NCBI GenBank assembly: GCA_050014695.1
Contig: JBEKCV010000010.1
Location: 8,619-72,618 of the forward strand
DNA from: Thermodesulfovibrionales bacterium
GTDB taxonomy: Bacteria; Nitrospirota; Thermodesulfovibrionia; Thermodesulfovibrionales; UBA9159
Direction: 5' to 3'
DNA length: 64,000 nucleotides
Both the position numbers and the translations under genes were made by a program. Positions 1,979 to 56,779 of this stretch are shown here, piece by piece; positions within the stretch are counted from its first letter, which is position 1; every line of letters begins with the position of its first letter. The notes below the pieces were generated by a model. The model was not told where the DNA came from. It saw only the letters and a program-made list of their open reading frames with translations, and searched no databases.

Positions 1979-2652
1979 ACGCTCATAACAAGATCGGCAT
2001 TTTCGGAGGGACCTTTAATCCCGTGCATTACGGACACCTCAGGGCTGCTGAAGAAGTGAGAGAAAAACTGCATTTCGAAAAGGTGCTCTTTATCCCTTCG
2101 CGCAACCCGCCCCTGAAGATGGATGACCTGGCGCCTGCTGAAGAACGCTACGAGATGACCAGGCTTTCCATAGAGGCGAACCCTTTTTTCGAGATATCAC
2201 CCATAGAATGCGAGAAGCAAGGGAAGTCATATACGGTCGAAACCCTTGCGGCACTGCATGAGCTGTATCCCGATAAAGCTTTATATCTGATCGTGGGCAT
2301 CGATTCGTTTCTTGATATCCCTGCGTGGCGCCAGCCGGAGAGGGTTTTGGAGCTCACCCATTTTGTGGTTCTTTCAAGACCCGGCTTCAGTTTCTCAAGC
2401 ATTTCTTCGCTGATACCAACGAACATCGCCATTCTCTCGGAAATGGATGGTGCACGCCGTGAGGTCTATAAGACAAACCTGAAGAATGGGAGAGAGGTCG
2501 TGCTGCTCAATGTCACGCCGTTGCCCATATCTGCCACGACAGTCAGAAGGCTCGTGCGCCATGGCAAAAGCATAAAATACCTGTTGCCAGATAAGATAGA
2601 ATCTTATATAATTTCTCATAGTCTTTATCAGGAAGGTGGTGACGACCTTTAG
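1975..2652 (+). CDS. nadD: nicotinate-nucleotide adenylyltransferase
   Basis: 'GIFGGTFNPVHYGHL' (HxGH nucleotidyltransferase motif) and 'ISATTVRRL' (ISSTxxR-like). Start overlaps the upstream stop by 4 nt. Confidence 0.9.
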   Translation: MNAHNKIGIFGGTFNPVHYGHLRAAEEVREKLHFEKVLFIPSRNPPLKMDDLAPAEERYEMTRLSIEANPFFEISPIECEKQGKSYTVETLAALHELYPDKALYLIVGIDSFLDIPAWRQPERVLELTHFVVLSRPGFSFSSISSLIPTNIAILSEMDGARREVYKTNLKNGREVVLLNVTPLPISATTVRRLVRHGKSIKYLLPDKIESYIISHSLYQEGGDDL

Positions 2653-3052
2653 AAGTAAGGAGAAAGCTGTTCTTGCCGCATACGCAGCTATGGCAAAAAA
2701 AGCAAAGGAGACCGTAATCCTTGAACTGGCGGGATTAACCATCCTTGCTGATTATTTTGTTATCTGCTCTGGTGAAAGCACAACCCAGGTTAGGGCCGTT
2801 GCCGAATATATCGAGGCAGAGTTCCAGAACAAATCCATGAGGCCATTGGCGATTGAGGGGTTAAGTTATGCTCACTGGGTGTTGATAGACTATGGCGATG
2901 TTATTGTCCATGTGTTCGAAGATGAGACTAGGAATTATTACGAGCTCGAAAAGCTGTGGCTGGATGCGCCGAGAGTCATCATTGAAGAACAGGACGGCGC
3001 GCATCGAAAAAGAGACATGACTGCCGTGAAAGGCGAAAGGTATCATCAGTAA
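2636..3052 (+). CDS. rsfS: ribosome silencing factor RsfS (iojap family)
   Basis: 'ILADYFVICSGESTTQVRAVAEYI', 'WVLIDYGDVIVHVF', 'RNYYELEKLW'. The nadD-rsfS order is the conserved one. Confidence 0.9.
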   Translation: MVTTFRSKEKAVLAAYAAMAKKAKETVILELAGLTILADYFVICSGESTTQVRAVAEYIEAEFQNKSMRPLAIEGLSYAHWVLIDYGDVIVHVFEDETRNYYELEKLWLDAPRVIIEEQDGAHRKRDMTAVKGERYHQ

Positions 3053-4365
3053 TGGGTAAGATTGCACTGACGGTTTTTGTGGCGTTCCTTCTGGCACTCG
3101 GGTATCTTGCTGTCCTCAATAAAGAGCCGATTACGTTTACCCTCGCGCCGAAAACGGTTTACGAGATGCCCAAAATAGCCCTCATACTCCTGTCCTCAGC
3201 CGTAGGGGCTGCAATCATGCTCCTTTATTTCTTCATCAGGGATACGCAGCGGTTTATTCACAGCAGGCAGTATCAGCGAAAACAGAAGAGAGATCTGAAG
3301 GTCCAGGAACTCTATTCGAAGGCACTGAACTCGATTCTCGCAGACAACGAGGAAGAGGCAAGGTCCGCGTTGGAGGAAATCCTGCAGGAAGAACCCGGTC
3401 ACTTGGACGCCATGCTGAGGCTCGGCGATATTTCTGCTGGAAACAAAGACTTTGCAAAGGCGTTCAACTATTATAAAAAAGCGAAAGAGATCCAGCCGCA
3501 GAATCCGGAGGTACTTTTTTCCCTGGTGAGGGTGATGGAGAATACGAACCGGGTGTCCGATGCCCTTCTGTATCTGGACGAGATTCTCGACAGGAACCCG
3601 GAGAACCTCACCGCCCTCCATGCGAAACGGTCTCTGCTCGAGAAGAAGGACGAGTGGGATGAAGTCATTTCCCTCCAAAGGACCATTATCAAATCTGAAC
3701 ACAACGAGAAGGACCGCCAGAGAGAACAGGAAAACCTCCTTGGGTATAAGTATGAACAGGGCAGGTATAGTCTTGAGAACGGCCAGAACGAAAAAGCGAA
3801 AAAGGCGTTCAGGACAATTCTTCGGCTTGAGAAGAACTTCATTCCTGCCTATCTCGGTCTCGCTGAGGTGATGCTCAGGGGAGGGGAGACAGAAGAAGCG
3901 ATCGGCTTTCTCGAGAAAGGGTTTGAACAGACATCCTCTGTCATCATCCTGGCACGGATTGAGGATCTTCTCATAAACCTCGGCGAACCGGCTAGACTGA
4001 TCCGACTCTATAAGAACGCCCTCTCGAAATCTCCCCAGGGCCAGTCATTGAGATTTTTCCTAGGGAAGCTCTACTATAGGCTTGAGATGCTGGACGATGC
4101 CTTTGATATCCTCTTGACGGTCGATTCAAGCGGCGTTGCCTATCCTGAATTGCATCAGCTTCTGGGGAACATATACCTCAGGCACCAACAATGGAACAAG
4201 GCGGTCGAGGAATTCAAGAAGGTGATAGACATAAAAAAACCTTTCAACCTTTTGTACTGTTGCGAATCGTGCGGGTACTCTTCTCAAGAGTGGGCGGGAA
4301 GGTGTGCAAATTGCAAATTGTGGAACTCGTATCAGTTCAACTTCTATGGCAGCTGCAAAGCGTAA
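3052..4365 (+). CDS. lapB: LapB/YciM-like TPR protein (N-terminal TM segment, TPR repeats, C-terminal rubredoxin-type zinc ribbon)
   Basis: N-terminal TM helix, multiple TPR-like repeats, and C-terminal 'CCESCGYSSQEWAGRCANCKLWNS'. Confidence 0.7.
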   Translation: MGKIALTVFVAFLLALGYLAVLNKEPITFTLAPKTVYEMPKIALILLSSAVGAAIMLLYFFIRDTQRFIHSRQYQRKQKRDLKVQELYSKALNSILADNEEEARSALEEILQEEPGHLDAMLRLGDISAGNKDFAKAFNYYKKAKEIQPQNPEVLFSLVRVMENTNRVSDALLYLDEILDRNPENLTALHAKRSLLEKKDEWDEVISLQRTIIKSEHNEKDRQREQENLLGYKYEQGRYSLENGQNEKAKKAFRTILRLEKNFIPAYLGLAEVMLRGGETEEAIGFLEKGFEQTSSVIILARIEDLLINLGEPARLIRLYKNALSKSPQGQSLRFFLGKLYYRLEMLDDAFDILLTVDSSGVAYPELHQLLGNIYLRHQQWNKAVEEFKKVIDIKKPFNLLYCCESCGYSSQEWAGRCANCKLWNSYQFNFYGSCKA

Positions 4366-4407
4366 AAGCGTAATAGCGACGATGCTGCGTCAACATCGAG
4401 TGGCGGG

Positions 4408-5079
4408 TTGAACGAGAACGAGAAAAATGCTGAAAGCCGGGAAGGGTGCGTGCCGCTCATCTCGCATCGCTCGACACTGCAGCGAGTCGTTCTGGATACC
4501 AGCCTTTTCGTCAATCCCGATGTGAGAACGAGCTTGGGGAATACCCCCACCGAGGCCCTCGAAACATTCCTTTCCATGGCGGCTCAGATACACGTGCTCG
4601 AATTCTATATGCCTCCGTCGATCTTTGCGGAACTCCTCCATTTTGTCGAAAGAGAGAAGATACCTGGTGACCTTCTTGTCATCCTTCACCAGAAGCCGCC
4701 TAAAAAACATGAGCTGAAGTGTCCCGCGATTTTATTGTACGAGTTAATCGAAGATATGAGGGAACGGGTAAATAAAGGGCTGAGAGTTGCTGAAAATGCT
4801 GTCAGGAGCGCTGAAAAGAAAAAAACCGATGAGATCATTCAGGACTTGAGACGGAAATATAGGGAAGCTCTGAGGGAGGGCATTATAGACAGCAGAGAGG
4901 ATGTTGATCTCCTGCTGCTCGCAATGGAACTGGACGCCCTTCTCATTACCGCAGATCAGGGCCTCATCACCTGGGCGGAAAAATTCGGCATACAATGGCT
5001 GTTTCCTGAAAAGTTCAAGGATTATCTGACAGGGGCGATAAAGCGAACAGAGCTTCTTTCAGCAATGCCAAAGAAGTGA
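4408..5079 (+). CDS. HARP-type protein-only RNase P (PIN-like, Aq_880 / MJ_0950 'RNA ligase partner' family)
   Basis: 'VVLDTSLFVNP', 'EFYMPPSIFAEL', 'ERVNKGLRVAE', 'LRRKYREALREGIIDSREDVDLLLLAMELDALLITADQGLITWAEKFGI'. These are colinear with my recollection of A. aeolicus Aq_880. The start codon is uncertain (TTG at 4408, or an internal GTG). Confidence 0.8.
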   Translation: MNENEKNAESREGCVPLISHRSTLQRVVLDTSLFVNPDVRTSLGNTPTEALETFLSMAAQIHVLEFYMPPSIFAELLHFVEREKIPGDLLVILHQKPPKKHELKCPAILLYELIEDMRERVNKGLRVAENAVRSAEKKKTDEIIQDLRRKYREALREGIIDSREDVDLLLLAMELDALLITADQGLITWAEKFGIQWLFPEKFKDYLTGAIKRTELLSAMPKK

Positions 5080-5120
5080 GCTGGGATTCCCCTCCTGCTG
5101 CCAGACTGAACCCATGGCAG

Positions 5121-10681: not shown

Positions 10682-11195
10682 GTCACCCGGGAAAAAGGTA
10701 GATTTACTCGGCTGTTTACTTCCTAATCTGTTAGCAAAGGTAATGCCAAACAGCTTACGCAGAGGGTCGGCATTTCCTCTGATCAAATCCTCCTGGATTA
10801 ATCAAAAGATTGGCCACTCATTGTCGGTCGTTACCACTTGGGCCTACATGGCCCATCTGACCAGTAATTTCGGTATATCAGATCGGGAGACAGGCAAATG
10901 TCTTTGTTAACGGCTGTAAAAAGTTAAACAAGGCATTATCCTTAACAAGTAAGTACTTATATTCATATCTGGTTAGTTTGGTCAGAAATTAGATTTCCTT
11001 TGCTTAGTAACGTGTTTTTTTAACGGAGGAAGAGAGTACTGTGCGGAAAACCGCAGAGAGTATGCAAAAAGTATATAGTCGAACATAGCATGGTTAGATC
11101 ATGCTTAAGATATCGTGGCTCTCGCAAACAAAAGGGTGAGACACAGACAAACATCGATGTAATCCGGCGCGTCAGGTGCGCAGTATTGCTACCTG

Positions 11196-12566
11196 TCAGC
11201 TTCGGTCGATACAGATATCTTGAGAGGTATCGATTCCGTATTCTCTTATCTTTTCGAAAAGGGTTCTGTAACTGATATTGAGGACTTCTGCTGTTTTCGT
11301 CTTGTTGCCCCTGCTTTTTCCAAGGGCGTCAAGGATCATCCTTCTTTCAAGTTCCTTCACTGCGTCCTTGAGGTGCAGAGAGGAAGACGCACGTGTCTCG
11401 GATTGTTCATTCATCAAGAAGTCGATGCATCCTTCATCGATGGTATCCTTATCTGTCATGAGCACGGCTCTTCTCATGACATTCTTCAATTCTCGTATGT
11501 TGCCTGGCCATGAATGCTTCGTCAATCTGGCGATCGCATTTGAAGTCATTTCCTTGATCTGTTTATTCAGCTCTGCGCAGGCCTCAAAGATGAATTTCTG
11601 AGCAAAGAGCTGGATGTCTTCGCCCCGTTCTCGCAGGGGAGGGAGGCTGATAATAAATTCACCGAGGCGGTAAAAAAGGTCTTCCCTGAATTCCTTCTTG
11701 AGCACGCTCTGCTTAATGTCGCTATTCGTTGCAGAAAGAATGCGGACATCTATATCGACGGGGTTCGTATCGCCGAGAGGATAGACCTTTTTTTTCTCGA
11801 TAACCGTAAGGAGCTTGCTCTGTATGAGGGGAGACATATTCTCGAGCTCATCGAGGAAGATGGTACCGAGATGGGCCGTTTCAAAATAGCCGATCTTATC
11901 CTTTTGCGCTCCGGTAAATGATCCTTTCTTATAGCCAAAGAGTTCGCTCTCAATAAGATTATCGGGTATCAAACCAATGTCGACGCTCACGAAAGGCTTT
12001 GACGCCCGTTTGCTCATATTCTGTATTGCAGAGGCGACAACCGATTTTCCTGTGCCTGTTTCACCTTGAATAATCACCGAAAAATCAGTCTCTGCAACCT
12101 GGCGAACCTCTTTTATGACCTTTCTGATGGCGGGGCTTTTCCCCAGCAGGTGCTCAAGGGAGGACTCAAGGGCTGAACTGACCTTTGTGATCTCCGCTTC
12201 CAAGGTTAGCCTTTCAATCGCCCTCTTCAGGGTGATAATGAGTCTTTCAAATTCTGGTGGCTTGACAGAAAAATCATATGCTCCGTTCTTTATCGCCTCA
12301 ACCGCGGTTGGGATGTCCCCATGCGCCGTAAGGATGATAATGGGAACATGACTGTCGATTTTCTTGAGTTCCTTCAACGTCTCCAGACCATTCATCCGCG
12401 GCATCTGCAGATCAAGAAGCACGGCTTGGGGTCGGTCGGCTTTAAAGACTTCTATTGCTCTGATTCCGTCTGAAGCCTCCGCAGGTGAGAAACCTTCATC
12501 ACTCAATACCTCTTTCACGATACCCCTCAAATCTTCATCATCGTCTACGATCAATACCTTTGCCAT
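11196..12566 (-). CDS. sigma54-dependent response regulator (REC + AAA+ + Fis-type HTH; NtrC family)
   Basis: 'VLIVDDDEDL', 'DLQMPRMNG', Walker A 'GETGTGKS', 'ESELFGYKKGSFTGA' (GAFTGA variant), 'FREDLFYRL', C-terminal HTH 'KTKTAEVLNISYRTLFEKI'. Confidence 0.9.
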   Translation of the reverse strand: MAKVLIVDDDEDLRGIVKEVLSDEGFSPAEASDGIRAIEVFKADRPQAVLLDLQMPRMNGLETLKELKKIDSHVPIIILTAHGDIPTAVEAIKNGAYDFSVKPPEFERLIITLKRAIERLTLEAEITKVSSALESSLEHLLGKSPAIRKVIKEVRQVAETDFSVIIQGETGTGKSVVASAIQNMSKRASKPFVSVDIGLIPDNLIESELFGYKKGSFTGAQKDKIGYFETAHLGTIFLDELENMSPLIQSKLLTVIEKKKVYPLGDTNPVDIDVRILSATNSDIKQSVLKKEFREDLFYRLGEFIISLPPLRERGEDIQLFAQKFIFEACAELNKQIKEMTSNAIARLTKHSWPGNIRELKNVMRRAVLMTDKDTIDEGCIDFLMNEQSETRASSSLHLKDAVKELERRMILDALGKSRGNKTKTAEVLNISYRTLFEKIREYGIDTSQDICIDRS

Positions 12567-20238: not shown

Positions 20239-20997
20239 GTGAACAGCATGCATAAAGTTGTTTTACTCAGACACGGAGAAAGCATATGGAACAGAGAAAA
20301 CCTTTTTACCGGGTGGACTGATGTTGATCTGTCCGAAAGAGGCATCGAGGAAGCCAGAGACGCGGGCCATGTGCTGAAACAACAGGGATATGTGTTTGAT
20401 GTCGCTTTCACTTCAGTTTTAAAACGCGCGATACGAACTCTTTGGATCGTGCTCGATGAGATGGATCTTATGTGGATTCCCGTCTACCGCGACTGGCGAC
20501 TGAATGAACGCCATTACGGTGCGCTGCAGGGTCTCGACAAAGCGGAGACTGCTCGGAAATTCGGAGAGCAGCAGGTGAAAATCTGGAGGCGGAGCTATGA
20601 CGTTCGTCCTCCGGCTCTGGAAGAAGACGATCCGCGGAATCCACGGAATGACCCTCGCTACAAGGAACTCACCGGCGGTCAGCTTCCGCTCTCGGAGTGT
20701 TTAAAGGATACGGTAGAGCGGTTTTTGCCCTGCTGGCATGATCGTATTGCGCCTGCGGTCAGGTCAGGGCAGCGGGTGCTCATCGCTGCCCACGGGAACA
20801 GTCTTCGTGCCCTCCTAAAATACCTAGATGGAATCTCTGAAGAGGAGATCGTGGGACTGAACATACCCACGGGAATGCCGCTGGTCTACGAGCTCGATGG
20901 CCAGTTGAAACCGATACGAAACTACTATCTCGGTGATCCTGACAAAGTAAAGAAGGCCATGGCGGCGGTGGCAAACCAGGGCAAGGTCAGGAAATAG
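20239..20997 (+). CDS. gpmA: 2,3-bisphosphoglycerate-dependent phosphoglycerate mutase
   Basis: '[27 protein letters not shown]', 'ERHYGALQG', '[10 protein letters not shown]'. Confidence 0.95.
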
Positions 20998-21031
20998 CTG
21001 ATTGATTTACTCTTGAGAGGCAGAAAACGTT

Positions 21032-22462
21032 GTGACTCTTCCCGCTAACAAAACCAAGCTTGTCTGCACCGTCGGACCAGCATCCGATTCGCCTGAGATC
21101 CTAAAACAGATGATAGGGGCCGGCATGAATGTGGCGCGGCTCAACTTCTCCCACGGCGATTTCAGATGGCACAAAAGGGTGATCGATGAAATACGTGCTG
21201 CGGCTATTTCAGCCGGACAGCGTGTCGCGATTATGGCCGATCTGCCTGGACCCAAAATGCGCATCGGTCAACTGGCCCAAGAGCCAGCGGAGTTGAGGCC
21301 GGGTGCCGTTTTCACCCTGACGACAGAAGGCATAGTCGGTGACAGCTCCAGGGTCTCTGTTACCTTTTCCGGTCTGCCGAAGGCCGTGAAGCCGGGAGAT
21401 ACGTTGTTTCTCAATGACGGCCTCATTCAACTCGAAGTGGAAGAAGTGCGGCGCAATGAAATTCGCTGCCGCGTTCTGGTCGGCGGTGAACTATGGTCAC
21501 GCAAAGGGATCAACGTGCCAGGCATCAATCTCGGTATCGGGGCATTTACTGACCGTGACCGCGAGTGCCTTAAATTTGCTCTGGACCAGGGGGTGGACGC
21601 AGTCAGCCAATCTTTTGTTGAGACCGCAGCAGACATTACCGCTGTCCGTGGAGCCAGTGCAGCTCTCGGCCACAATCCGTTTCTCATCGCGAAGATCGAA
21701 CGATCAAGGGCGCTTGACCATCTGCAGGACATCCTTGAGGTTGCCGACGGTCTCATGATCGCCCGCGGCGATCTGGGAGTCGAAATACCGATTGAGCAGA
21801 TAGCCGTTGTTCAAAAGCAGATAATGCGCCTTGCAAATCTGCGCGGGAAACCGGTGATCACGGCTACGCAGATGCTTGAGTCCATGACCGATAACCGACG
21901 CCCCACCCGTGCGGAGGCGACTGATGTCGCGAATGCCATCCTTGACGGCACAGACTGCGTCATGCTTTCCGGAGAGTCTGCAATGGGGAAGTATCCGGTG
22001 GAGGCAGTGGCTATGCTGGCCAAAATCGCAGCAGCAATCGAACCGCACCGTGTTGGCAATCAGGCGCGAGACGCAATGAAAGTCGTTGACCCCGAAAGCG
22101 CAATCAACATCACTGACGTAATAGCCTTCAGTGTTGAGGCAACGCTGGATCATATCTCTCCTGCTGCTGTCTTTGTCCCTACCCGCACCGGGACGACCGC
22201 GAGGAGTCTTTGCCGTTTCAGGCTGCCGGTCTGGATAACGGCTGTGAGTTCCCAAGAAACAACCTGCCAGCACCTCCAGTTCTCCTACGGGGTCTATCCG
22301 GTTCATGAGCCTGACCACCCCGAGGACTGGCGTCTCTATGCGAGAGAATGGCTTGCTTCGCACGGGGTGAGCGGGAAACTCGTCGTGCTGACCGAGGGGC
22401 CGTCTTCTCGGCACCCGGAGGCAAACAACCGCATGGAAATCATTGACCTCGAGCGAGCGTGA
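21032..22462 (+). CDS. pyk: pyruvate kinase
   Basis: 'KLVCTVGPAS', 'GMNVARLNFSHGD', 'IAKIE', 'MIARGDLGVEIP', 'VITATQMLESM', 'DGTDCVMLSGESA'. GTG start. Confidence 0.95.
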   Translation: MTLPANKTKLVCTVGPASDSPEILKQMIGAGMNVARLNFSHGDFRWHKRVIDEIRAAAISAGQRVAIMADLPGPKMRIGQLAQEPAELRPGAVFTLTTEGIVGDSSRVSVTFSGLPKAVKPGDTLFLNDGLIQLEVEEVRRNEIRCRVLVGGELWSRKGINVPGINLGIGAFTDRDRECLKFALDQGVDAVSQSFVETAADITAVRGASAALGHNPFLIAKIERSRALDHLQDILEVADGLMIARGDLGVEIPIEQIAVVQKQIMRLANLRGKPVITATQMLESMTDNRRPTRAEATDVANAILDGTDCVMLSGESAMGKYPVEAVAMLAKIAAAIEPHRVGNQARDAMKVVDPESAINITDVIAFSVEATLDHISPAAVFVPTRTGTTARSLCRFRLPVWITAVSSQETTCQHLQFSYGVYPVHEPDHPEDWRLYAREWLASHGVSGKLVVLTEGPSSRHPEANNRMEIIDLERA

Positions 22463-26874: not shown

Positions 26875-26961
26875 TGGTGCCGAAGGCGGGATTTGAACCC
26901 GCACGGCCTTTCGACCACTAGACCCTGAACCTAGCGCGTCTGCCAGTTCCGCCACTTCGGC
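26875..26961 (-). tRNA. tRNA-Leu (anticodon CAG), class II with long variable arm, CCA encoded
   Basis: The reverse complement GCCGAAGTGGCGGAACTGGCAGACGCGCTAGGTTCAGGGTCTAGTGGTCGAAAGGCCGTGCGGGTTCAAATCCCGCCTTCGGCACCA folds as a cloverleaf with anticodon loop TTCAGGG. It is near-colinear with E. coli tRNA-Leu(CAG) as I recall it. Confidence 0.92.
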
Positions 26962-27031
26962 AATTACAAAGCGAAGGAGTTCAGCGCTAATCTCTTGCCA
27001 CGAATACGATAACTCCAGCGTACGCTCTCTG

Positions 27032-27802
27032 TCAGTTTCCTACAAGCTCGATGAGATCTTTGGCGTCTCTGTAACCCGAGAGTAACCTTCCGTCAGGCAT
27101 GACGAGGGCGGGTGTGCCTGAAATCCCGAGTTTCTCCGCTAGCTTGATGTTCTCGTCAATCACGGAAGTCTCACATGTTGGTTTAGGCAATTCTTTTTTC
27201 GCATAGGCGTCTTCGAGGAGCGCAAGTGATTTTTCGCACTCAATGGCCTTTGCCTTCTCATATGATCCCTTATGCATCGCAAGCGGATACAGCTTTATGT
27301 AGAAAGCGATATCTTTTCTCTGTTCAATGACCTTCTTCATCTCCTGATGAAGTTTTTCGCAGAATGGTCATTCAGGGTCGCTAAACACGATCACCTTATA
27401 TTTGGCATCTTTAGCCCCCATGACAAGGGCGTCATCAAGAGGAATCTTTGATGCGTCGACCTTATTGATTTGGTCGAACCTCTCTTTGGTGAGATTCTTT
27501 TTCTCGTTGATTGCGAAGATCGAACCCGATATGATGTGCGTCTTCGAAAAATCAATATAGGTCAGACCTTTTTTCCCTCCGGTTTCGATATCCACTTCCC
27601 ACATACTTTTCAAAGGACTTGCTGTAACCTCCAGGACCTGGATGTTTGGGTCCAACTTTTTCAGCAGTGCAGAGGCCTCTTCTTTGCTTAACGTATGGCA
27701 TTTTGAACAGTCCTGGCCTTTTTCGCTGAAGCCATGGGAATATGACACTGGCAGGAGAAAAAACGCCACTGCCACAAACAGAACAATTTTTCGCATGTTC
27801 AC
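27032..27802 (-). CDS. periplasmic DsbC/DsbG-like thiol:disulfide oxidoreductase, probable selenoprotein (in-frame UGA at 27368-27370 read as Sec, redox motif U-P-F-C)
   Basis: Two same-frame track ORFs are separated only by TGA. The joined sequence is 'KVIVFSDPE-U-PFCEKLHQEMKK', with U at the first Cys of the thioredoxin-fold CxxC. A signal peptide is present, and a hairpin lies 15 nt downstream of the UGA. Confidence 0.72.
27335..27352 (-). promoter_or_regulatory. candidate bacterial SECIS hairpin
   Basis: The minus strand reads CUUCAUC-AGGA-GAUGAAG: a perfect 7-bp stem with a G-containing 4-nt loop. The loop starts 22 nt after the UGA. Confidence 0.5.
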
Positions 27803-27898
27803 CTCCGAAATGTTTTCTCATACTACCATAAGCGGGGTGAAAGGAGCAAGAAAATATACCTATTCGCTCTCTGGTAAAATGAGGTATACTAACATCCT

Positions 27899-28417
27899 AT
27901 GCCGTTATATGGTGCATTGTTCCTCAGTGAGTTAGTCAAGAAGCCGGTTTTTGACCCCGAAGGTGAGGTTTTGGGAAGGGTCAAAGACATCATTGTCGTG
28001 AAGGGCGACCCCCTTCCACAAATATCAACCACTATTACCGAAAGAAAAAAGGAACTGTTCCAGATTAAGTGGAAGGACGTTGATATTTTCAACAAGAGGA
28101 TCATATCGTCAGAATTCGCTGGATGGACGGCAAGCAATGAATTATTCGGTATCAAGGAATACCCGGCGGTCCCGATCAGCCGTGGGCTCTCTCATCGTAC
28201 TGATTCCGAACGCTCCCCTCATCGCTATCGTGTGGATTTTGCAGGTGGTAAACGGTGTGATGTTGCCTTTCGTGCTGATCTTCATGCTGTTTTTGATAAC
28301 AAGAAGGAATTGCTGGAAGACCTTACAAATTCAAAAACGTTTAAGAGAATCGCATGGACAACGGGCGTAGTGATGATCGCGTTGACCGGGATGTCTGTTG
28401 TTATCATGTTTGTTTAG
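27899..28417 (+). pseudogene. mosaic remnant: PRC-barrel domain N-terminus joined to a frameshifted Nramp (MntH) C-terminal fragment
   Basis: Frame 2 reads 'LSELVKKPVFDPEGEVLGRVKDIIV...WKDVDIF' (PRC-barrel-like). Nramp-like text then switches frames: 'EFAGW' (frame 2), 'GSLIVLIPNAPLIAIVWILQVVNGVMLPFVLIFMLFLI' (frame 0), and 'DNKKELLEDLTNSKTFKRIAWTTGVVMIAL' (frame 2). Confidence 0.5.
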
Positions 28418-28436
28418 AATGTATGGACAGGTGAAA

Positions 28437-29510
28437 ATGATGGTAAAAGCGATCGAATGGAACAATGGCGAGGTCATCATGCTCGATCAGAGCAGGCTTC
28501 CTGCAGAGGTAACATATATCGAATGCCGGGATTGTCAAGCGGTCGCGGAAGGCATCAAGAAGCTTCGGATACGGGGGGCTCCGGCCATCGGCATTGCGGC
28601 GGCGATGGGCATCGCCCTCGGTGCTCGGGATATAGAGGCTGACGATTTTAAAGAGTTCATGGCAAAGCTTGAGCCGGTCTGTAATCTGCTTCTTTCCACG
28701 AGGCCGACGGCGGTAAACATTCGATGGGCGGTCGACAGGCTGAAGGGGTTTTTATCGGACAAAGAAGGCCTGCCCGTTGTGCGGTTGAAAGAGATGCTCA
28801 TCGAGGAGTCAACGAGGATCCTTGACGAGGATCGACAAGTCAATAGGGCAATCGGAAGGCACGGAGCGGGGCTCATCAGAGACGGCGATACCATCCTGAC
28901 CCACTGCAATGCAGGGGCCTTGGCAACCGGCGGATACGGTACGGCAACAGCACCGATGTTCATTGCGAAAGAGCAGGGAAAGACAATACAGGTGTTTGCT
29001 GATGAGACGAGACCGGTGCTGCAGGGGGCGCGCCTTACCGCCTGGGAACTGATGGAGGAAGGCATCCCTGTCACTTTGATCACTGATAGTTCGGCGGGGT
29101 CACTCATGAAAAAGGGTCTGATCGACCTCGTGATCGTTGGAACCGACAGGACGGTAAAAAATGGGGACGTGGCAAATAAGATCGGTACGTATCCTCTTGC
29201 TGTTCTCGCTAAAGAGCACGGGATACCCTTTTATGTTGCAGCTCCTACGAGCAGCATTGACCTCTCCATCTCCACGGGAGATGAGATACCCATCGAGGAG
29301 CGAGACCCTTCAGAGGTTACTCATCTGTTCGGAAAAGTTTCGGTGGAGGGATGCGAGTCCTTCTGGGGCTCTGTCCAGATAGCTCCCGAGGGCGTCGCGG
29401 TGAGGAACATCGCTTTCGATGTGACGCCTCATCGGTACGTTACTGCAATAATTACAGAAAAGGGTATATTCAAGCCAGGCGATATCAGGCATATAATGGA
29501 CCGGCCATGA
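28437..29510 (+). CDS. mtnA: S-methyl-5-thioribose-1-phosphate isomerase (eIF-2B alpha/beta/delta family)
   Basis: 'MLDQSRLP', 'IRGAPAIGIAAAMG', 'RPTAVN', 'ILTHCNAGALAT', 'ADETRPVLQGARLTAWEL', 'VGTDR', 'NKIGTY', 'FDVTP'. Confidence 0.9.
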   Translation: MMVKAIEWNNGEVIMLDQSRLPAEVTYIECRDCQAVAEGIKKLRIRGAPAIGIAAAMGIALGARDIEADDFKEFMAKLEPVCNLLLSTRPTAVNIRWAVDRLKGFLSDKEGLPVVRLKEMLIEESTRILDEDRQVNRAIGRHGAGLIRDGDTILTHCNAGALATGGYGTATAPMFIAKEQGKTIQVFADETRPVLQGARLTAWELMEEGIPVTLITDSSAGSLMKKGLIDLVIVGTDRTVKNGDVANKIGTYPLAVLAKEHGIPFYVAAPTSSIDLSISTGDEIPIEERDPSEVTHLFGKVSVEGCESFWGSVQIAPEGVAVRNIAFDVTPHRYVTAIITEKGIFKPGDIRHIMDRP

Positions 29511-30481
29511 AGTGCGACAATATCTTTTCATTCTATGCAGAGGACTTGGACCGTGTAGAGAAGAGCCTCAGAACCATCTTTGCGAGCGATGCCTTCATTA
29601 TCCCGATGGTCGGGGAGCACATTATACGCAGTGGCGGCAAAAGGCTGAGACCGCTTTTTTTAATCCTGAGCGCTGAGCTTGCCAATTACAGGGGTGAAAA
29701 CAGGATCATCCTCGCGGGTATCATTGAAGCGATCCACACAGCCTCCCTTCTCCATGATGACGTTGTGGATGGTGCCGAGGTCAGGAGGGGGAAGGCCGCC
29801 TCTCATGTCGTTTGGGGAAATCAGGTAGTCATCTTAGTGGGAGACTACATTTATGCCAATGCCCTGAGAATCTCTGTCCTTCAGGAAGACCTGAGGATCA
29901 TCGAGGCGCTGTCAGCGGCGATAGCGGCCATGACCGAGGGCGAGATTATCCAACTGAACAGGGTGGCGGACCCGGAGATAACCCTCGATGAGTACTACCG
30001 GATAATCTCTTCAAAGACTGGCGCTCTGATCTCGGCGGCATGCAGGATCGGCGGTATCCTGGGTCGGCTTCCGCTGGAACAGGTGGATGCGCTCGGCAGA
30101 TTCGGTATGAAGACGGGCATAGCGTTCCAGATAGCTGACGATATACTGGATTACATGGCAGAGGAGAGGGATCTCGGGAAGAAACTGGGGAAAGACCTTG
30201 AGGAAGGCAAAATAACCCTTCCCCTCATTTATCTGCTCGGGGAGGCATCCGGTGAAGAAAAGGAGGAGGTGAAGCGTATTATCAAGAATGACCTCTTCGC
30301 AGTGGATGACTTGATGAGGATTACGAAGCTGTTCAGAAAGTATCATGCGATAGAAGAAGCTCTCAGGATTGCGCAAAGGCTGCTCAATGAAGCCAAGGAA
30401 GAGCTTGCGGTATTTGGGGACATACCGGAAAGGCAGGCCCTGTTGATGCTTGCGGAATACGCCCTTGCAAGGGAGAGATGA
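29507..30481 (+). CDS. trans-polyprenyl diphosphate synthase (long-chain, IspB/HepT-like)
   Basis: FARM 'LLHDDVVD', SARM 'DDILD', 'GKRLRP'. The ATG overlaps the mtnA stop (ATGA). Confidence 0.9.
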
Positions 30482-30987
30482 TGCATCCGCTGGCTGAACT
30501 GGCAAAGAAGGTGGTGGAGGAGTTTGCGGCAACGGGTAGGATTCTTCCTCCGCCTCAAGAACTTACCCCCGAGATGCAGGGGCAGGCAGGCGTTTTTGTC
30601 TGTTTGAAAAAAAACGGAGAATTGAGGGGATGCATCGGTACCTTTCTTCCCTGCAGCCAGAACGTTGCTGAAGAGGTCATCAATAATGCAGTGGCCGCTT
30701 CAACGGAAGACCCAAGGTTTCTCCCCGTAGAAGTTGATGAACTATCAGCTCTCGTGTACTCCGTTGATGTGCTTTCTCCCCCGGAAAAGGTGACGAGTGT
30801 CAGGGAGCTTGATCCCAGACGATACGGTGTGATTGTCGAGTTCGGAGGAATGAAGGGCCTTCTCCTGCCGGATCTCGAAGGCGTGGACACCGCGGAGGAG
30901 CAGCTCAGGATTGCAAAGATGAAAGCCGGAATATCCGTGGCCGAGGACTGTGCAATCTATAGGTTTGAAGTCAGGAGATACCATTGA
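30478..30987 (+). CDS. AMMECR1-domain protein
   Basis: '[19 protein letters not shown]', 'DPRFLPV', 'GLLLPD'. Confidence 0.85.
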
Positions 30988-32496
30988 ATGAACATGTCTC
31001 TCAAGGGAAACCTCAGAGATCATAGTCTGCCGCGAATACTCCTTGACATCAAGAGGAAAGGAGTGACCGGCACCCTTTCTCTCATGTCTTCGTCTGTTGA
31101 AAGAACTATCTATTTCCGGAACGGGGAAGCGATTTTCGCTTCTTCCACGTCGGATGCTGACAGGCTCGGGGAGATGCTCCTGAAGGCCGGCAAGATTACC
31201 GTGCAGGGGTACGAGAAATCCATTGAACTGCTGAAGAGAACGGGGCAACGATATGGTGCGATACTGGTGGAACTCGGCTGCCTCACACCGAAAGACCTCT
31301 TATGGGGCGTCAAATACCAGGTCGCGGAGATCCTGTACAGCTGCTTCAGGCTTGACGAGGGCGCTACCTATGAGTTGCAGGAGGCAGTCTCGCCTTCCCT
31401 CGATATAACCCTCACGCTGAGCACGGAAGCTCTTGTCTACGAGGGCATAAAGAGGCTTCGGGAACAGGGGGAAATGGGGAAAGATATGCCGGACCTGGAT
31501 ATGGTATTTAAACTCGATGATGATCGCGCACATCTTCTCCGGGGCGAGGGCGCCGTTGTTGACCTCGATGCCGAGGATAGAAGGATATTTTCCCTCGTGG
31601 ACGGAGAAAGAACGGTAAGGCAGGTGATAGAGGAAGCGCATGCGAGTCCGTTTGAGACCATGAAGACCCTGTATGGGTTGGCGGTTGTCGGAGTCATTGT
31701 GAAGAGGGAAGCCCCGCGGGGGGAAAACGGTGAGACCAGAGATTCCAGAGCGACGGCCGGGGACGAGCCGCGAGGTCAAGGCGATAAAAATCCGTCCACT
31801 TCCGAAGTCGATAGCGCCCTGGCGCGAAGGGTTGACGATTTTTATCAGCGGGCGAAGGATATGGGCCCAGATGAAATACTCCAGGTTGATGAGAAGACAG
31901 GACCGGAGGAGATAAAGAGAAATTACTATCGACTGGTACGAGAGTTTCATCCTGACAGGGTTTATCATACAGACGATAAGGAACTGAAAGGTAAGGTCAC
32001 CGTCCTTTTTGATACCATCACGAAGGCATATAGACTGTTCCAGGATGAGGAAAAGCGGAGGGAGTATTTTGATTCCCTTCTCAGGCCGTCAAAGCCTCCG
32101 TCATGGAAACAATCCCAACAGTCACCTGACAACGCGACGCGGGAAACACTCTTGACAGAAATGTTTCAGAGAGGGGTCCAGGAATTTAAAAAGGGCAATT
32201 TCTGGGGTGCTGCTGATCTGTTTAAACGGGTGACCAAGGAGGACCCTCGAAATACTAAGGCGTGGAGTTATCTTTCTCTTGCCCTGAGCAAGGTCCCCAA
32301 CAGACTGAAAGAGTCTGAAGAAGCGCTCCTCAAGGCTGTTGCCCTTGACCCGCTGAACAGTGAGCATCTCACGAACCTGGGGCTCATATACCTCAAGGCG
32401 GGTCTTAATATGCGGGCAAGAAAACAGTTCGAGAAGGCCCTGAAATTAGACCCTGCGAATAAACAGGCAAAACAGGGACTTGAACAGATAGGATGA
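30988..32496 (+). CDS. DUF4388 (PatA-N-like) + J-domain + TPR protein
   Basis: 'LKGNLRDHSLPRILLDIKRKGVTGTLSL'; J-domain 'ILQVDEKTGPEEIKRNYYRLVREFHPDR'; C-terminal TPR repeats. Confidence 0.8.
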   Translation: MNMSLKGNLRDHSLPRILLDIKRKGVTGTLSLMSSSVERTIYFRNGEAIFASSTSDADRLGEMLLKAGKITVQGYEKSIELLKRTGQRYGAILVELGCLTPKDLLWGVKYQVAEILYSCFRLDEGATYELQEAVSPSLDITLTLSTEALVYEGIKRLREQGEMGKDMPDLDMVFKLDDDRAHLLRGEGAVVDLDAEDRRIFSLVDGERTVRQVIEEAHASPFETMKTLYGLAVVGVIVKREAPRGENGETRDSRATAGDEPRGQGDKNPSTSEVDSALARRVDDFYQRAKDMGPDEILQVDEKTGPEEIKRNYYRLVREFHPDRVYHTDDKELKGKVTVLFDTITKAYRLFQDEEKRREYFDSLLRPSKPPSWKQSQQSPDNATRETLLTEMFQRGVQEFKKGNFWGAADLFKRVTKEDPRNTKAWSYLSLALSKVPNRLKESEEALLKAVALDPLNSEHLTNLGLIYLKAGLNMRARKQFEKALKLDPANKQAKQGLEQIG

Positions 32497-56368: not shown

Positions 56369-56779
56369 CTTAAGTCCTGGCGGCTGAGACCCAGCCCACG
56401 AGGGCGGTGAGAAGCCGCTTGTGTGGGCTGCCCCACTTTCGCCTTCCCGTGGTAACGCACTCGCCTTGTGAGAGAGTGTCTCCACTCGCCACTGTTGTAC
56501 GGCCGCTGTATGTCTCGGTCCGTTTCGCGGTCATCCAGACCGTGTCAGCAGGCAGAGGTTCGAGTGGTCCGAACTGAGGAAGCATTCGGACGTTGGTCTT
56601 AACCTCCCGCACGACGTACTGCCTTGTCGGCCGATGATCCGGCTTATGAGTATGAGGACTCCGTCTGGTCACTCCCGGGCTACGCATCAACTGCTTGCGC
56701 ACCCCGTCCGTCAGGGAGGGGGGGCGGCTCGTGTATAGGAAGTCCTCAGGATAGGAATGAAGATCCCCCGTCCCTGAGA
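56369..56779. other. GC-rich, highly self-complementary non-coding insert between tsf and pyrH (candidate structured RNA or remnant of a mobile element)
   Basis: A 411-nt gap sits inside the otherwise tight rpsB-tsf-pyrH-frr cluster. Nested helices can be read directly: 56392-99/56423-30, 56404-07/56415-18, 56551-60/56601-06 and 56619-23, 56567-73/56585-91, and 56712-23/56765-76. Confidence 0.3.

What the first reader, a model, noticed from the sequence alone, without database searches (positions are those of the whole stretch)
4408..5079. Protein-only RNase P of the HARP type (Aq_880-like PIN-domain protein)
The 223-aa ORF matches, block for block, what I recall of Aquifex aeolicus Aq_880, the ~23-kDa RNA-free RNase P described in 2017 and earlier annotated as 'RNA ligase partner, MJ_0950 family'.
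- The N-terminal PIN acidic motif is 'VVLDTSLFVNP'.
- 'EFYMPPSIFAEL' and 'ERVNKGLRVAE' follow.
- The long C-terminal block is 'LRRKYREALREGIIDSREDVDLLLLAMELDALLITADQGLITWAEKFGI'.

Most bacteria rely on the rnpB ribozyme plus RnpA. HARPs are patchily distributed, in Aquificaceae, some Nitrospirota and others, and archaea. Whether this HARP is the sole RNase P here or a redundant one is biologically interesting. The gene follows lapB in the same orientation but has an uncertain start codon.
Basis: partly seen in the sequence, partly recalled or inferred. Interest (0 to 1): 0.6.

Follow-up and report, generated by a model that had tools for sequence, protein, structure and literature searches.

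The report
HARP protein-only RNase P gene

Summary
The ORF at 4408..5079 (+) exists exactly as described, and all four quoted motifs are in its translation. It is a clear HARP:
- Pfam PIN_5 scores 207 bits over the full profile, and TIGR03875 scores 208 bits (cutoff 95).
- It is 54% identical, without gaps, to the crystallised Planctomycetes HARP (PDB 7E8K, E 6e-65).
- All four catalytic aspartates and the tRNA-binding Arg/Lys cluster are conserved.

The host is an uncultured Thermodesulfovibrionales bacterium. The gene ends a conserved rsfS–LapB-like–HARP array found in most related genomes, and it is better conserved than its neighbours.

Two local peculiarities:
- The ancestral ATG start is mutated, leaving TTG-4408 or, more likely, GTG-4450.
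- The Rnl3 RNA ligase that usually abuts HARP is absent from the ~84 kb of this contig I examined.

No rnpB or rnpA lies in that DNA, but most of the genome was out of reach. Published work reports that Thermodesulfovibrio yellowstonii lacks both RNase P RNP components and that some Nitrospirae are HARP-only. HARP is therefore plausibly the sole RNase P here; that is inferred, not shown.

Verdict: interpretation supported; a new member of a known kind in an order already listed as HARP-positive; modest interest.

The parts
4408..5079 (+). HARP gene, longest reading (TTG start, 223 aa; the JGI call)
   Evidence: ORF. PIN_5 206.8 bits, TIGR03875 208.4 bits, PDB HARP chains at E 6e-65. The identical protein is on 6 JGI contigs.
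4450..5079 (+). HARP gene, alternative and somewhat better supported start (GTG, 209 aa; the NCBI call)
   Evidence: P0003/P0004 are the 209-aa form. The Shine-Dalgarno duplex is -8.6 kcal/mol upstream of GTG-4450 and -5.3 upstream of TTG-4408, against a random mean of -4.7. The ancestral ATG of relatives is TCG here.
4483..5034 (+). PIN_5 metallonuclease domain (aa 26-209), including the inserted helical domain
   Evidence: Pfam envelope 26-209 matches profile positions 1-202 of 205. Gap-free alignment to PDB 7e8k residues 20-206.
4726..4875 (+). Spike-helix / protruding-helix insertion (approx. aa 107-156). It carries the basic residues R118, R120, K123, R126, R133, R148, R152 and R156, which bind the tRNA elbow and acceptor stem in characterised HARPs.
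   Evidence: All these residues are invariant in alignment A1. They correspond to Aq880 R94/R96/K99/R102/R125/R129/R133 and PbHARP R108/R116/R123/R138/R142/R146. Two long helices, 107-136 and 140-156, appear in the low-confidence AF2 model.
4495..4497 (+). Catalytic Asp30 codon (GAT) = Aq880 Asp7
   Evidence: Invariant in A1 and A2.
4888..4902 (+). Catalytic Asp161 (GAC, 4888-4890) and Asp165 (GAT, 4900-4902) = Aq880 Asp138/Asp142 = PbHARP D151/D155
   Evidence: Invariant in A1 and A2.
4954..4956 (+). Catalytic Asp183 codon (GAT) = Aq880 Asp160 = PbHARP D173
   Evidence: Invariant in A1 and A2. Position 160 was confirmed by counting the Aq880 sequence.
2636..4365 (+). Co-oriented upstream genes rsfS (2636-3052) and the LapB-like TPR gene (3052-4365), which form a conserved array with HARP and are probably co-transcribed with it
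   Evidence: The TPR gene lies directly upstream of HARP in 43 of 63 Nitrospirota loci, and rsfS is present in 46 of 62. rsfS and the TPR gene share base 3052; the gap from the TPR gene to HARP is 42 bp from TTG-4408 or 84 bp from GTG-4450. No promoter- or terminator-like site lies in that gap.

Best explanation

By homology to the solved HARPs, the mechanism is as follows. Two monomers pair through the inserted two-helix 'spike' domain, and dimers stack into tetramers and up to dodecamers. The Arg/Lys patch on one dimer's spike holds the tRNA elbow. The four-aspartate active site of the neighbouring dimer then cuts the 5' leader at position -1/+1.

The gene is the last member of a vertically inherited housekeeping array (nadD-rsfS-lapB-like-HARP) in an uncultured Thermodesulfovibrionales bacterium.

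Shown here: family membership, conservation of the catalytic and substrate-binding residues, synteny, and the lack of an adjacent RNA ligase.

Inferred: enzymatic activity (about 0.8), and that HARP is the main or only RNase P of this organism (about 0.55). The second inference rests on published absence of rnpA and rnpB in a related genus, not on this genome.
For: - Profile matches: PIN_5 206.8 bits against a cutoff of 27, covering 202 of 205 profile positions. TIGR03875 208.4 bits against a cutoff of 95.3.
- Solved structures: PDB 'RNA-free ribonuclease P' chains 7e8k (E 5.9e-65), 7e8j, 7f3e, 8kd9, 8ssf and 7og5.
- Residues: D30/D161/D165/D183 and R118/R120/K123/R126/R133/R148/R152/R156 are invariant against Aq880, PbHARP and TcHARP. 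Their roles are established by mutagenesis and structures.
- Distribution: about 70 species-level Nitrospirota genomes carry orthologues at 63-88% identity.
- Synteny and selection: the rsfS-TPR-HARP array is conserved, and HARP (median 80% identity) beats RsfS (62%) in 46 of 46 loci and TPR (54%) in 43 of 44.
- Composition: gene GC of 0.50 equals that of the flanks, so there is no sign of recent transfer.
- Literature for the HARP-only state: T. yellowstonii lacks both RNase P RNP components and is listed as HARP-positive. 'A few genera' of Nitrospirae encode only HARP. [quoted passage not shown]
Against: - No biochemistry was done here. Four of the five bacterial HARPs tested from dual-RNase-P organisms were weak or inactive in vitro and failed to complement E. 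coli.
- Only about 84 kb of the genome was inspected for rnpB and rnpA, so their absence there says almost nothing.
- High sequence conservation is typical of HARPs even in archaea where the gene is dispensable. It therefore does not prove an essential role.
- This organism (about 50% GC) belongs to a different lineage from Thermodesulfovibrio (about 34% GC).
- The AF2 model was too poor to add structural support.
Confidence: 0.85

Rival explanations
1. It is a genuine HARP, but an auxiliary or specialised nuclease. A classical rnpB/rnpA RNase P elsewhere in the genome would do the bulk of tRNA 5' maturation, as in HARP-encoding archaea and gammaproteobacteria.
For: Most HARP-encoding bacteria also have rnpA and rnpB. 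Archaeal HARP knockouts show no phenotype. Four of five bacterial HARPs from dual organisms were weak. More than 95% of this genome was not inspected.
Against: The complete T. yellowstonii genome lacks both RNP components. Nitrospirae are named as lacking RNA-based RNase P. The gene sits in a conserved housekeeping array across the class and is under stronger constraint than its neighbours.
Confidence: 0.35
2. It works mainly as the partner of an Rnl3 RNA ligase (the old 'RNA ligase partner' annotation). It would trim RNAs that the ligase then circularises or repairs, rather than acting as a general RNase P.
For: 89% of HARP-positive genomes encode Rnl3, and the two genes are co-localised in 80% of the bacterial cases. 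I found a convergent, abutting Rnl3 (PF09414 + PF18330) in 30 of the 80 related loci. Among the Nitrospirota loci with at least 1.3 kb of downstream sequence, 19 of 60 carry a full-length copy.
Against: No ligase or ligase remnant (tblastn, E<=10) exists in the window or in the contig extensions. 39 of 60 Nitrospirota loci with enough downstream sequence lack it. All eight Thermodesulfovibrio isolates are ligase-negative genome-wide.
Confidence: 0.07
3. It is a VapC-like PIN-domain toxin of a toxin-antitoxin module.
For: HARPs belong to the VapC structural group of PIN domains, and a toxin-antitoxin origin has been proposed for the family.
Against: There is no small antitoxin ORF. The gene upstream is a 437-aa LapB-like protein 42 bp away. 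The protein matches PIN_5 end to end, including the spike-helix insertion that VapC toxins lack. The chromosomal position is stable in about 70 species, and no mobile-element context was seen next to the gene.
Confidence: 0.02

Closest known systems
PbHARP, Planctomycetes bacterium GWF2_40_8 (PDB 7E8K / 7E8O; Li et al. 2022, PMC9051087)
   Same: 54% identity over 187 residues with no gaps. It has the same catalytic Asp triad plus the N-terminal Asp. The same Arg residues were shown by mutagenesis to be needed for pre-tRNA binding and cleavage. Both proteins have a short N-terminal extension ahead of the PIN core.
   Different: The window protein's N-terminal extension (11 or 25 residues, depending on the start) is unrelated in sequence. 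Its activity and oligomeric state are untested.
Aq_880, Aquifex aeolicus RNase P (PDB 7F3E; Nickel et al. 2017; Teramoto et al. 2021, PMC8405995)
   Same: Same family and architecture. D7/D138/D142/D160 and R94/R96/K99/R102/R125/R129/R133 are all conserved.
   Different: Only 43% identical. In the Aquificaceae MAG loci I retrieved, HARP has a convergent Rnl3 ligase next to it, which this locus lacks. Aquifex is a hyperthermophile with a reduced genome. This organism has about 50% GC, and record titles of its relatives point to peat, groundwater and soil.
Thermodesulfovibrio spp. HARPs (Seshadri & Gopalan 2025, Table S1, PMC12153264)
   Same: Same order. These genomes are HARP-positive and Rnl3-negative. 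The T. yellowstonii MAG locus L064 shares the rsfS-TPR-HARP arrangement and 71% identity. T. yellowstonii is reported to lack rnpB and rnpA.
   Different: A different family-level lineage (50% versus about 34% GC). Absence of the RNP enzyme and of Rnl3 has not been verified genome-wide for this organism.
Thermodesulfatator indicus HARP (Goessringer et al. 2023, PMC9945441)
   Same: A bacterial HARP outside the Aquificaceae with robust RNase P activity in vitro and in E. coli complementation. It is a model for what this protein may do.
   Different: T. indicus retains a functional rnpB and rnpA. It was not aligned here.

Membership tests
HARP (PIN_5 / TIGR03875 / COG1458) | Full-length match to Pfam PIN_5 (PF08745) above the gathering score | tested here: met
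   206.8 bits against a cutoff of 27. Residues 26-209 match profile positions 1-202 of 205.
HARP (PIN_5 / TIGR03875 / COG1458) | Match to TIGR03875 (RNA_lig_partner) above the curated cutoff | tested here: met
   208.4 bits against a cutoff of 95.3. The narrower PRK04358 equivalog models NF003342 and NF003344 score 237.7 and 236.4, below their cutoffs of 353 and 241, so the protein belongs to neither curated sub-clade.
HARP (PIN_5 / TIGR03875 / COG1458) | Four catalytic aspartates (Aq880 D7, D138, D142, D160) | tested here: met
   D30, D161, D165 and D183 are invariant in A1 and A2.
HARP (PIN_5 / TIGR03875 / COG1458) | Two-helix spike/protruding-helix insertion carrying the conserved Arg/Lys tRNA-binding patch | tested here: met
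   Met at the sequence level. The alignment to PbHARP is gap-free across the insertion, and R118, R120, K123, R126, R133, R148, R152 and R156 are conserved. The AF2 model (pLDDT 46.7) shows helices 107-136 and 140-156 but is too weak to count.
HARP (PIN_5 / TIGR03875 / COG1458) | Homo-oligomerisation (dimer to tetramer to dodecamer), required for activity | not testable with these tools
   Needs size-exclusion chromatography, mass photometry or EM on recombinant protein.
HARP (PIN_5 / TIGR03875 / COG1458) | Mg2+-dependent endonucleolytic removal of pre-tRNA 5' leaders | not testable with these tools
   Needs an in vitro cleavage assay or complementation of E. coli strain BW.
HARP-only bacteria (RNP RNase P lost, as in Aquificaceae) | No rnpB (RF00010/RF00011) anywhere in the genome | tested here: inconclusive
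   No hit in the window at the gathering threshold or at E<=1, nor in about 20 kb of contig extensions. That is only about 84 kb of the genome. Absence is published for T. yellowstonii.
HARP-only bacteria (RNP RNase P lost, as in Aquificaceae) | No rnpA (PF00825) anywhere in the genome | tested here: inconclusive
   No Ribonuclease_P domain appears among the called genes of the window and its flanks. tblastn with three RnpA sequences, two RpmH and one YidD found nothing in 1.38 Mb of held DNA. The rpmH-yidC region was never sampled.
HARP-Rnl3 gene pair (Seshadri & Gopalan 2025) | Rnl3 ligase (PF09414 + PF18330) within 5 kb of HARP, typically convergent | tested here: not met
   The convergent neighbour is an ArsA_ATPase protein (189.9 bits). 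There is no ligase hit at E<=10 in the window or in L001-L007, whereas 30 related loci have one.
VapC-type toxin-antitoxin module | A small antitoxin gene immediately upstream in the same operon | tested here: not met
   The gene upstream is the 437-aa LapB-like TPR protein. The gap is 42 bp from TTG-4408 (84 bp from GTG-4450) and holds no ORF.

The most novel reading that the evidence does not exclude
This lineage has no RNA-based RNase P and no Rnl3 partner at all. Judging by the record titles of its relatives (peat, groundwater, soil, deep mine), it is non-thermophilic. The rsfS-lapB-like-HARP array across about 70 species would then mark a whole class of Nitrospirota (Thermodesulfovibrionia) that runs tRNA 5' maturation on HARP alone. 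That would be a second, class-wide replacement of the ribozyme by a protein. The only evidence here that it is independent of the Aquificaceae case is that these HARPs are 43-47% identical to the Aquificaceae ones. Unlike in Aquificaceae, heat or genome reduction could not explain the replacement.
Probability: 0.45. Interest if true: 0.55.

Novelty: new member of a known kind. Interest (0 to 1): 0.3.

Why it matters
On its own the gene adds one more orthologue to a well-described family, in an order already tabulated as HARP-positive. Its value is comparative. Thermodesulfovibrionia offer many genomes in which HARP is vertically inherited inside a housekeeping array, some with and some without the Rnl3 ligase. 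They also seem to come from habitats that are not extreme.

If these genomes lack rnpB and rnpA, they would be a natural test of two questions: why a protein replaced the RNase P ribozyme, and whether HARP needs the ligase. The Aquificaceae alone cannot answer either.

The annotation also needs updating. Public records still name this protein 'RNA ligase partner protein', although no ligase lies next to it at this locus.

Tried and rejected
1. AlphaFold2 on a 15-sequence alignment gave mean pLDDT 46.7 and pTM 0.25. The alignment was too shallow and too closely related, so I did not use the model for a fold search. The 54% gap-free identity to crystal structures makes a fold search unnecessary.
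2. Direct search for the rnpA neighbourhood and for rnpB. tblastn with RpmH, RnpA, YidD, YidC, DnaA and MnmE queries, plus rnpB core-motif regexes, over all 1.38 Mb of held DNA gave nothing usable. The only hit was a generic GTPase segment in L029. This is uninformative, because none of the loci samples that part of a genome.
3. I could not reach the rest of this genome or the megabase contigs of relatives such as CP070632.1 and CAVTNL010000002.1.
4. A metagenome-wide rnpB pattern scan was considered and rejected. Its hits could not be assigned to this organism.
5. Nickel et al. 2017 (PMC5651759) is not held, so its content is cited only through later papers.
6. Toxin-antitoxin reading: rejected for lack of an antitoxin and because of the full PIN_5 architecture.
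7. Recent horizontal transfer: no compositional signal, and the synteny is conserved.
8. Promoter and terminator scans found no more sites than shuffled sequence gives, and none between the TPR gene and HARP.

Full report
**Observation.** The window holds an ORF at 4408..5079 on the + strand: 223 aa, starting at TTG (sequence). The gene lies 42 bp downstream of a co-oriented 437-aa TPR protein (3052..4365).

**Family assignment.**
- Pfam PIN_5 (PF08745) scores 206.8 bits (E 3e-61, cutoff 27). Residues 26-209 cover profile positions 1-202 of 205.
- NCBIfam TIGR03875 'RNA ligase partner protein' scores 208.4 bits against a cutoff of 95.3.
- The narrower PRK04358 equivalog models are not reached (237.7 against 353; 236.4 against 241). 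This is therefore not one of NCBI's curated sub-clades.
- Against PDB sequences, the seven best hits are all chains named 'RNA-free ribonuclease P'. They are 7e8k/7e8o (E 5.9e-65), 7e8j (1.8e-63), 7f3e and 8kd9 (2.3e-46), and 8ssf, 8kda and 7og5 (about 1e-41).
- The alignment to 7e8k (the Planctomycetes HARP) is gap-free over 187 residues.

**Defining residues.** The literature gives these:
- Aq880 needs Asp7, Asp138, Asp142 and Asp160 for activity. It also has a conserved basic patch, R94/R96/K99/R102/R125/R129/R133, proposed to bind the tRNA elbow (PMC8405995).
- PbHARP uses D151/D155/D173. It loses activity when R108, R116, R123, R138, R142 or R146 is mutated (PMC9051087).
- In a MAFFT alignment with PbHARP, TcHARP and Aq880 (54, 53 and 43% identity), the window protein keeps all of them: D30, D161, D165, D183, R118, R120, K123, R126, R133, R148, R152 and R156.
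- They remain invariant across 14 close homologues.
- I checked the Aq880 numbering by counting its sequence.

**Organism and distribution.**
- The identical 223-aa protein is on six JGI metagenome contigs. The window is part of Ga0439230_0000103 (139,925 bp).
- An identical 209-aa form is deposited at NCBI as 'RNA ligase partner protein [Thermodesulfovibrionales bacterium]'.
- A scan of one genome per GTDB species returned 80 loci. About 70 are Nitrospirota/Thermodesulfovibrionia at 63-88% identity, including a T. yellowstonii MAG at 71%.
- Identity then drops to WOR-3 (51-54%), Myxococcales, Aquificaceae (45-47%) and Chromatiaceae (43%).
- Record titles (SPRUCE peat, groundwater, MFD soil bins, DeMMO mine) hint that many hosts are not thermophiles. 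I could not verify the habitats.

**Genomic context.**
- The local order is methyltransferase, nadD, rsfS, LapB-like TPR, HARP. It is identical on four independent contigs.
- Across the Nitrospirota loci, the TPR gene lies directly upstream of HARP in 43 of 63. rsfS is present in 46 of 62.
- No promoter- or terminator-like site separates the TPR gene from HARP.
- The gene's GC content (0.50) equals that of its flanks.
- In the same loci, HARP is more conserved than its neighbours. Median identity is 80%, against 62% for RsfS (higher in 46 of 46 loci), 54% for TPR (43 of 44) and 59% for NadD (14 of 14).
- This points to vertical inheritance under strong constraint. HARPs are highly conserved even where they are dispensable, so it is not proof of essentiality.

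**Start codon.**
- Relatives begin with an ATG followed by a poorly conserved extension of 25-30 residues.
- The closest relative reads 'GGA ATG AGC AAC GGG TTG'. The window reads 'ACA TCG AGT GGC GGG TTG'. The ancestral ATG is therefore lost.
- This is not an assembly error: four independent contigs are identical over 4300-5120.
- The remaining in-frame starts are TTG-4408 and GTG-4450. The anti-Shine-Dalgarno duplex is -8.6 kcal/mol before GTG-4450 and -5.3 before TTG-4408. The random-position mean is -4.7, and 28% of random positions reach -6 or lower.
- This favours the 209-aa form mildly. Either way the PIN core, which starts at residue 26, is intact.

**RNA ligase partner.**
- Seshadri & Gopalan 2025 report that 89% of HARP-positive genomes encode an Rnl3 ligase. 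It is co-localised with HARP in 80% of the bacterial cases, usually convergently.
- Their table lists Dissulfurispira thermophila as HARP-positive with a convergent ligase. It lists all eight Thermodesulfovibrio isolates as HARP-positive and ligase-negative.
- I recovered the same picture. A roughly 370-aa protein with RNA_ligase plus Lig_C domains abuts HARP convergently in 30 of the 80 loci, including Aquificaceae and Chromatiaceae.
- Among Nitrospirota loci with enough downstream sequence, 19 of 60 have a full-length copy, 2 have fragments and 39 have none.
- The window has none. The convergent neighbour is an ArsA-type ATPase. tblastn at E<=10 finds no ligase remnant in the window or the contig extensions.

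**Sole or redundant RNase P?**
- Rfam finds only tRNA-Leu in the window at gathering thresholds, and no RNase P RNA even at E<=1. It finds nothing in the roughly 20 kb of extensions.
- No RnpA domain occurs among the called genes.
- This covers about 84 kb of a genome that I expect, from my own knowledge of related genomes and not from any measurement here, to be 2-3 Mb. It is therefore uninformative. The tools did not let me reach the rest (see Tried and rejected).
- The literature supplies lineage-level evidence. Matelska et al. 2016 found both RNase P components missing from the complete T. yellowstonii genome.
- Daniels et al. 2019 found that a few Nitrospirae genera encode only HARP, using RnpA as a proxy on mostly draft genomes.
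- Feyh et al. 2021 name Aquificae and Nitrospirae as the HARP-encoders that lack RNA-based RNase P.
- Against this, most HARP-encoding bacteria keep both enzymes, and four of five tested HARPs from such bacteria were weak.
- I put the probability that HARP is the sole RNase P in this organism at about 0.55.

**Mechanism (inferred by homology).** The PIN-like metallonuclease domain coordinates Mg2+ through the four aspartates. The inserted helices (approx. residues 107-156) dimerise into a four-helix spike. Dimers then assemble into higher oligomers. The basic spike of one dimer binds the tRNA elbow, while the neighbouring dimer's active site cleaves the 5' leader. The AlphaFold2 model was of low confidence (pLDDT 46.7), so I did not use it.

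**Novelty and verdict.** The family, its occurrence in Thermodesulfovibrionales, the ligase-negative state in that order and the HARP-only state in Nitrospirae are all published.

The locus adds three modest points:
- a conserved rsfS-lapB-like-HARP array across about 70 species;
- loss of the ancestral start codon in this strain;
- a variable junction downstream of HARP.

It is a new member of a known kind, of modest interest (0.3). The interesting reading that remains open is a class-wide, non-thermophilic, ligase-independent HARP-only lineage. A straightforward whole-genome search, which I could not run here, would test it.

Noticed in passing
window ~5108..~20105: A block of about 15 kb and 13 genes lies between HARP and the His_Phos_1/pyruvate kinase genes (20239-22462). 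It holds an ArsA-like ATPase, a pterin-binding/B12-binding methyltransferase pair, a response regulator, a sigma-54 activator with a histidine kinase, an ABC substrate-binding protein, a radical SAM protein and a TonB-dependent receptor. The block is absent from the closest relative (L008, UBA9159 MAG), which has only about 130 bp there. No flanking repeats or IS features were found. In other relatives HARP, with or without the ligase, is followed by the block at window ~27005-32490. The DNA downstream of HARP is therefore a variable junction.
   Followed up: partly
window 56474..56728 (-): A sub-threshold but full-length match to HEARO RNA (RF02033, the IscB-associated omega RNA): 38.7 bits against a gathering score of 83, E 1.9e-4. 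It lies in the ~295-bp gap between pyrH and tsf, with no IscB/HNH ORF beside it.
   Followed up: no
L001 1626-2045 and L007 19170-19885 (same contig, just outside the window at either end): Short ORFs with Cas12f1-like_TNB / OrfB_IS605 (TnpB) domains, probably decayed IS605-family elements.
   Followed up: no
window 26875..26961 (-): The only tRNA in the window, tRNA-Leu(CAG), has a genomically encoded 3' CCA and a U at position -1. One cited study found that a HARP cleaves CCA-bearing precursors about 10-fold more slowly. A single tRNA does not allow a conclusion.
   Followed up: partly
L029 ~11105-11566 and L044 ~3898-4050: Two related Nitrospirota loci carry only fragments of the Rnl3 ligase next to HARP (154 and 51 aligned residues). 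This suggests ligase decay in progress in some lineages.
   Followed up: no
L060 (JBLMXV010000165.1): A contig labelled 'Chloroflexota bacterium' carries a HARP 73% identical to the window's, with the Nitrospirota-type rsfS-TPR-HARP synteny. A mis-binned Nitrospirota contig is more likely than a Chloroflexota HARP.
   Followed up: no
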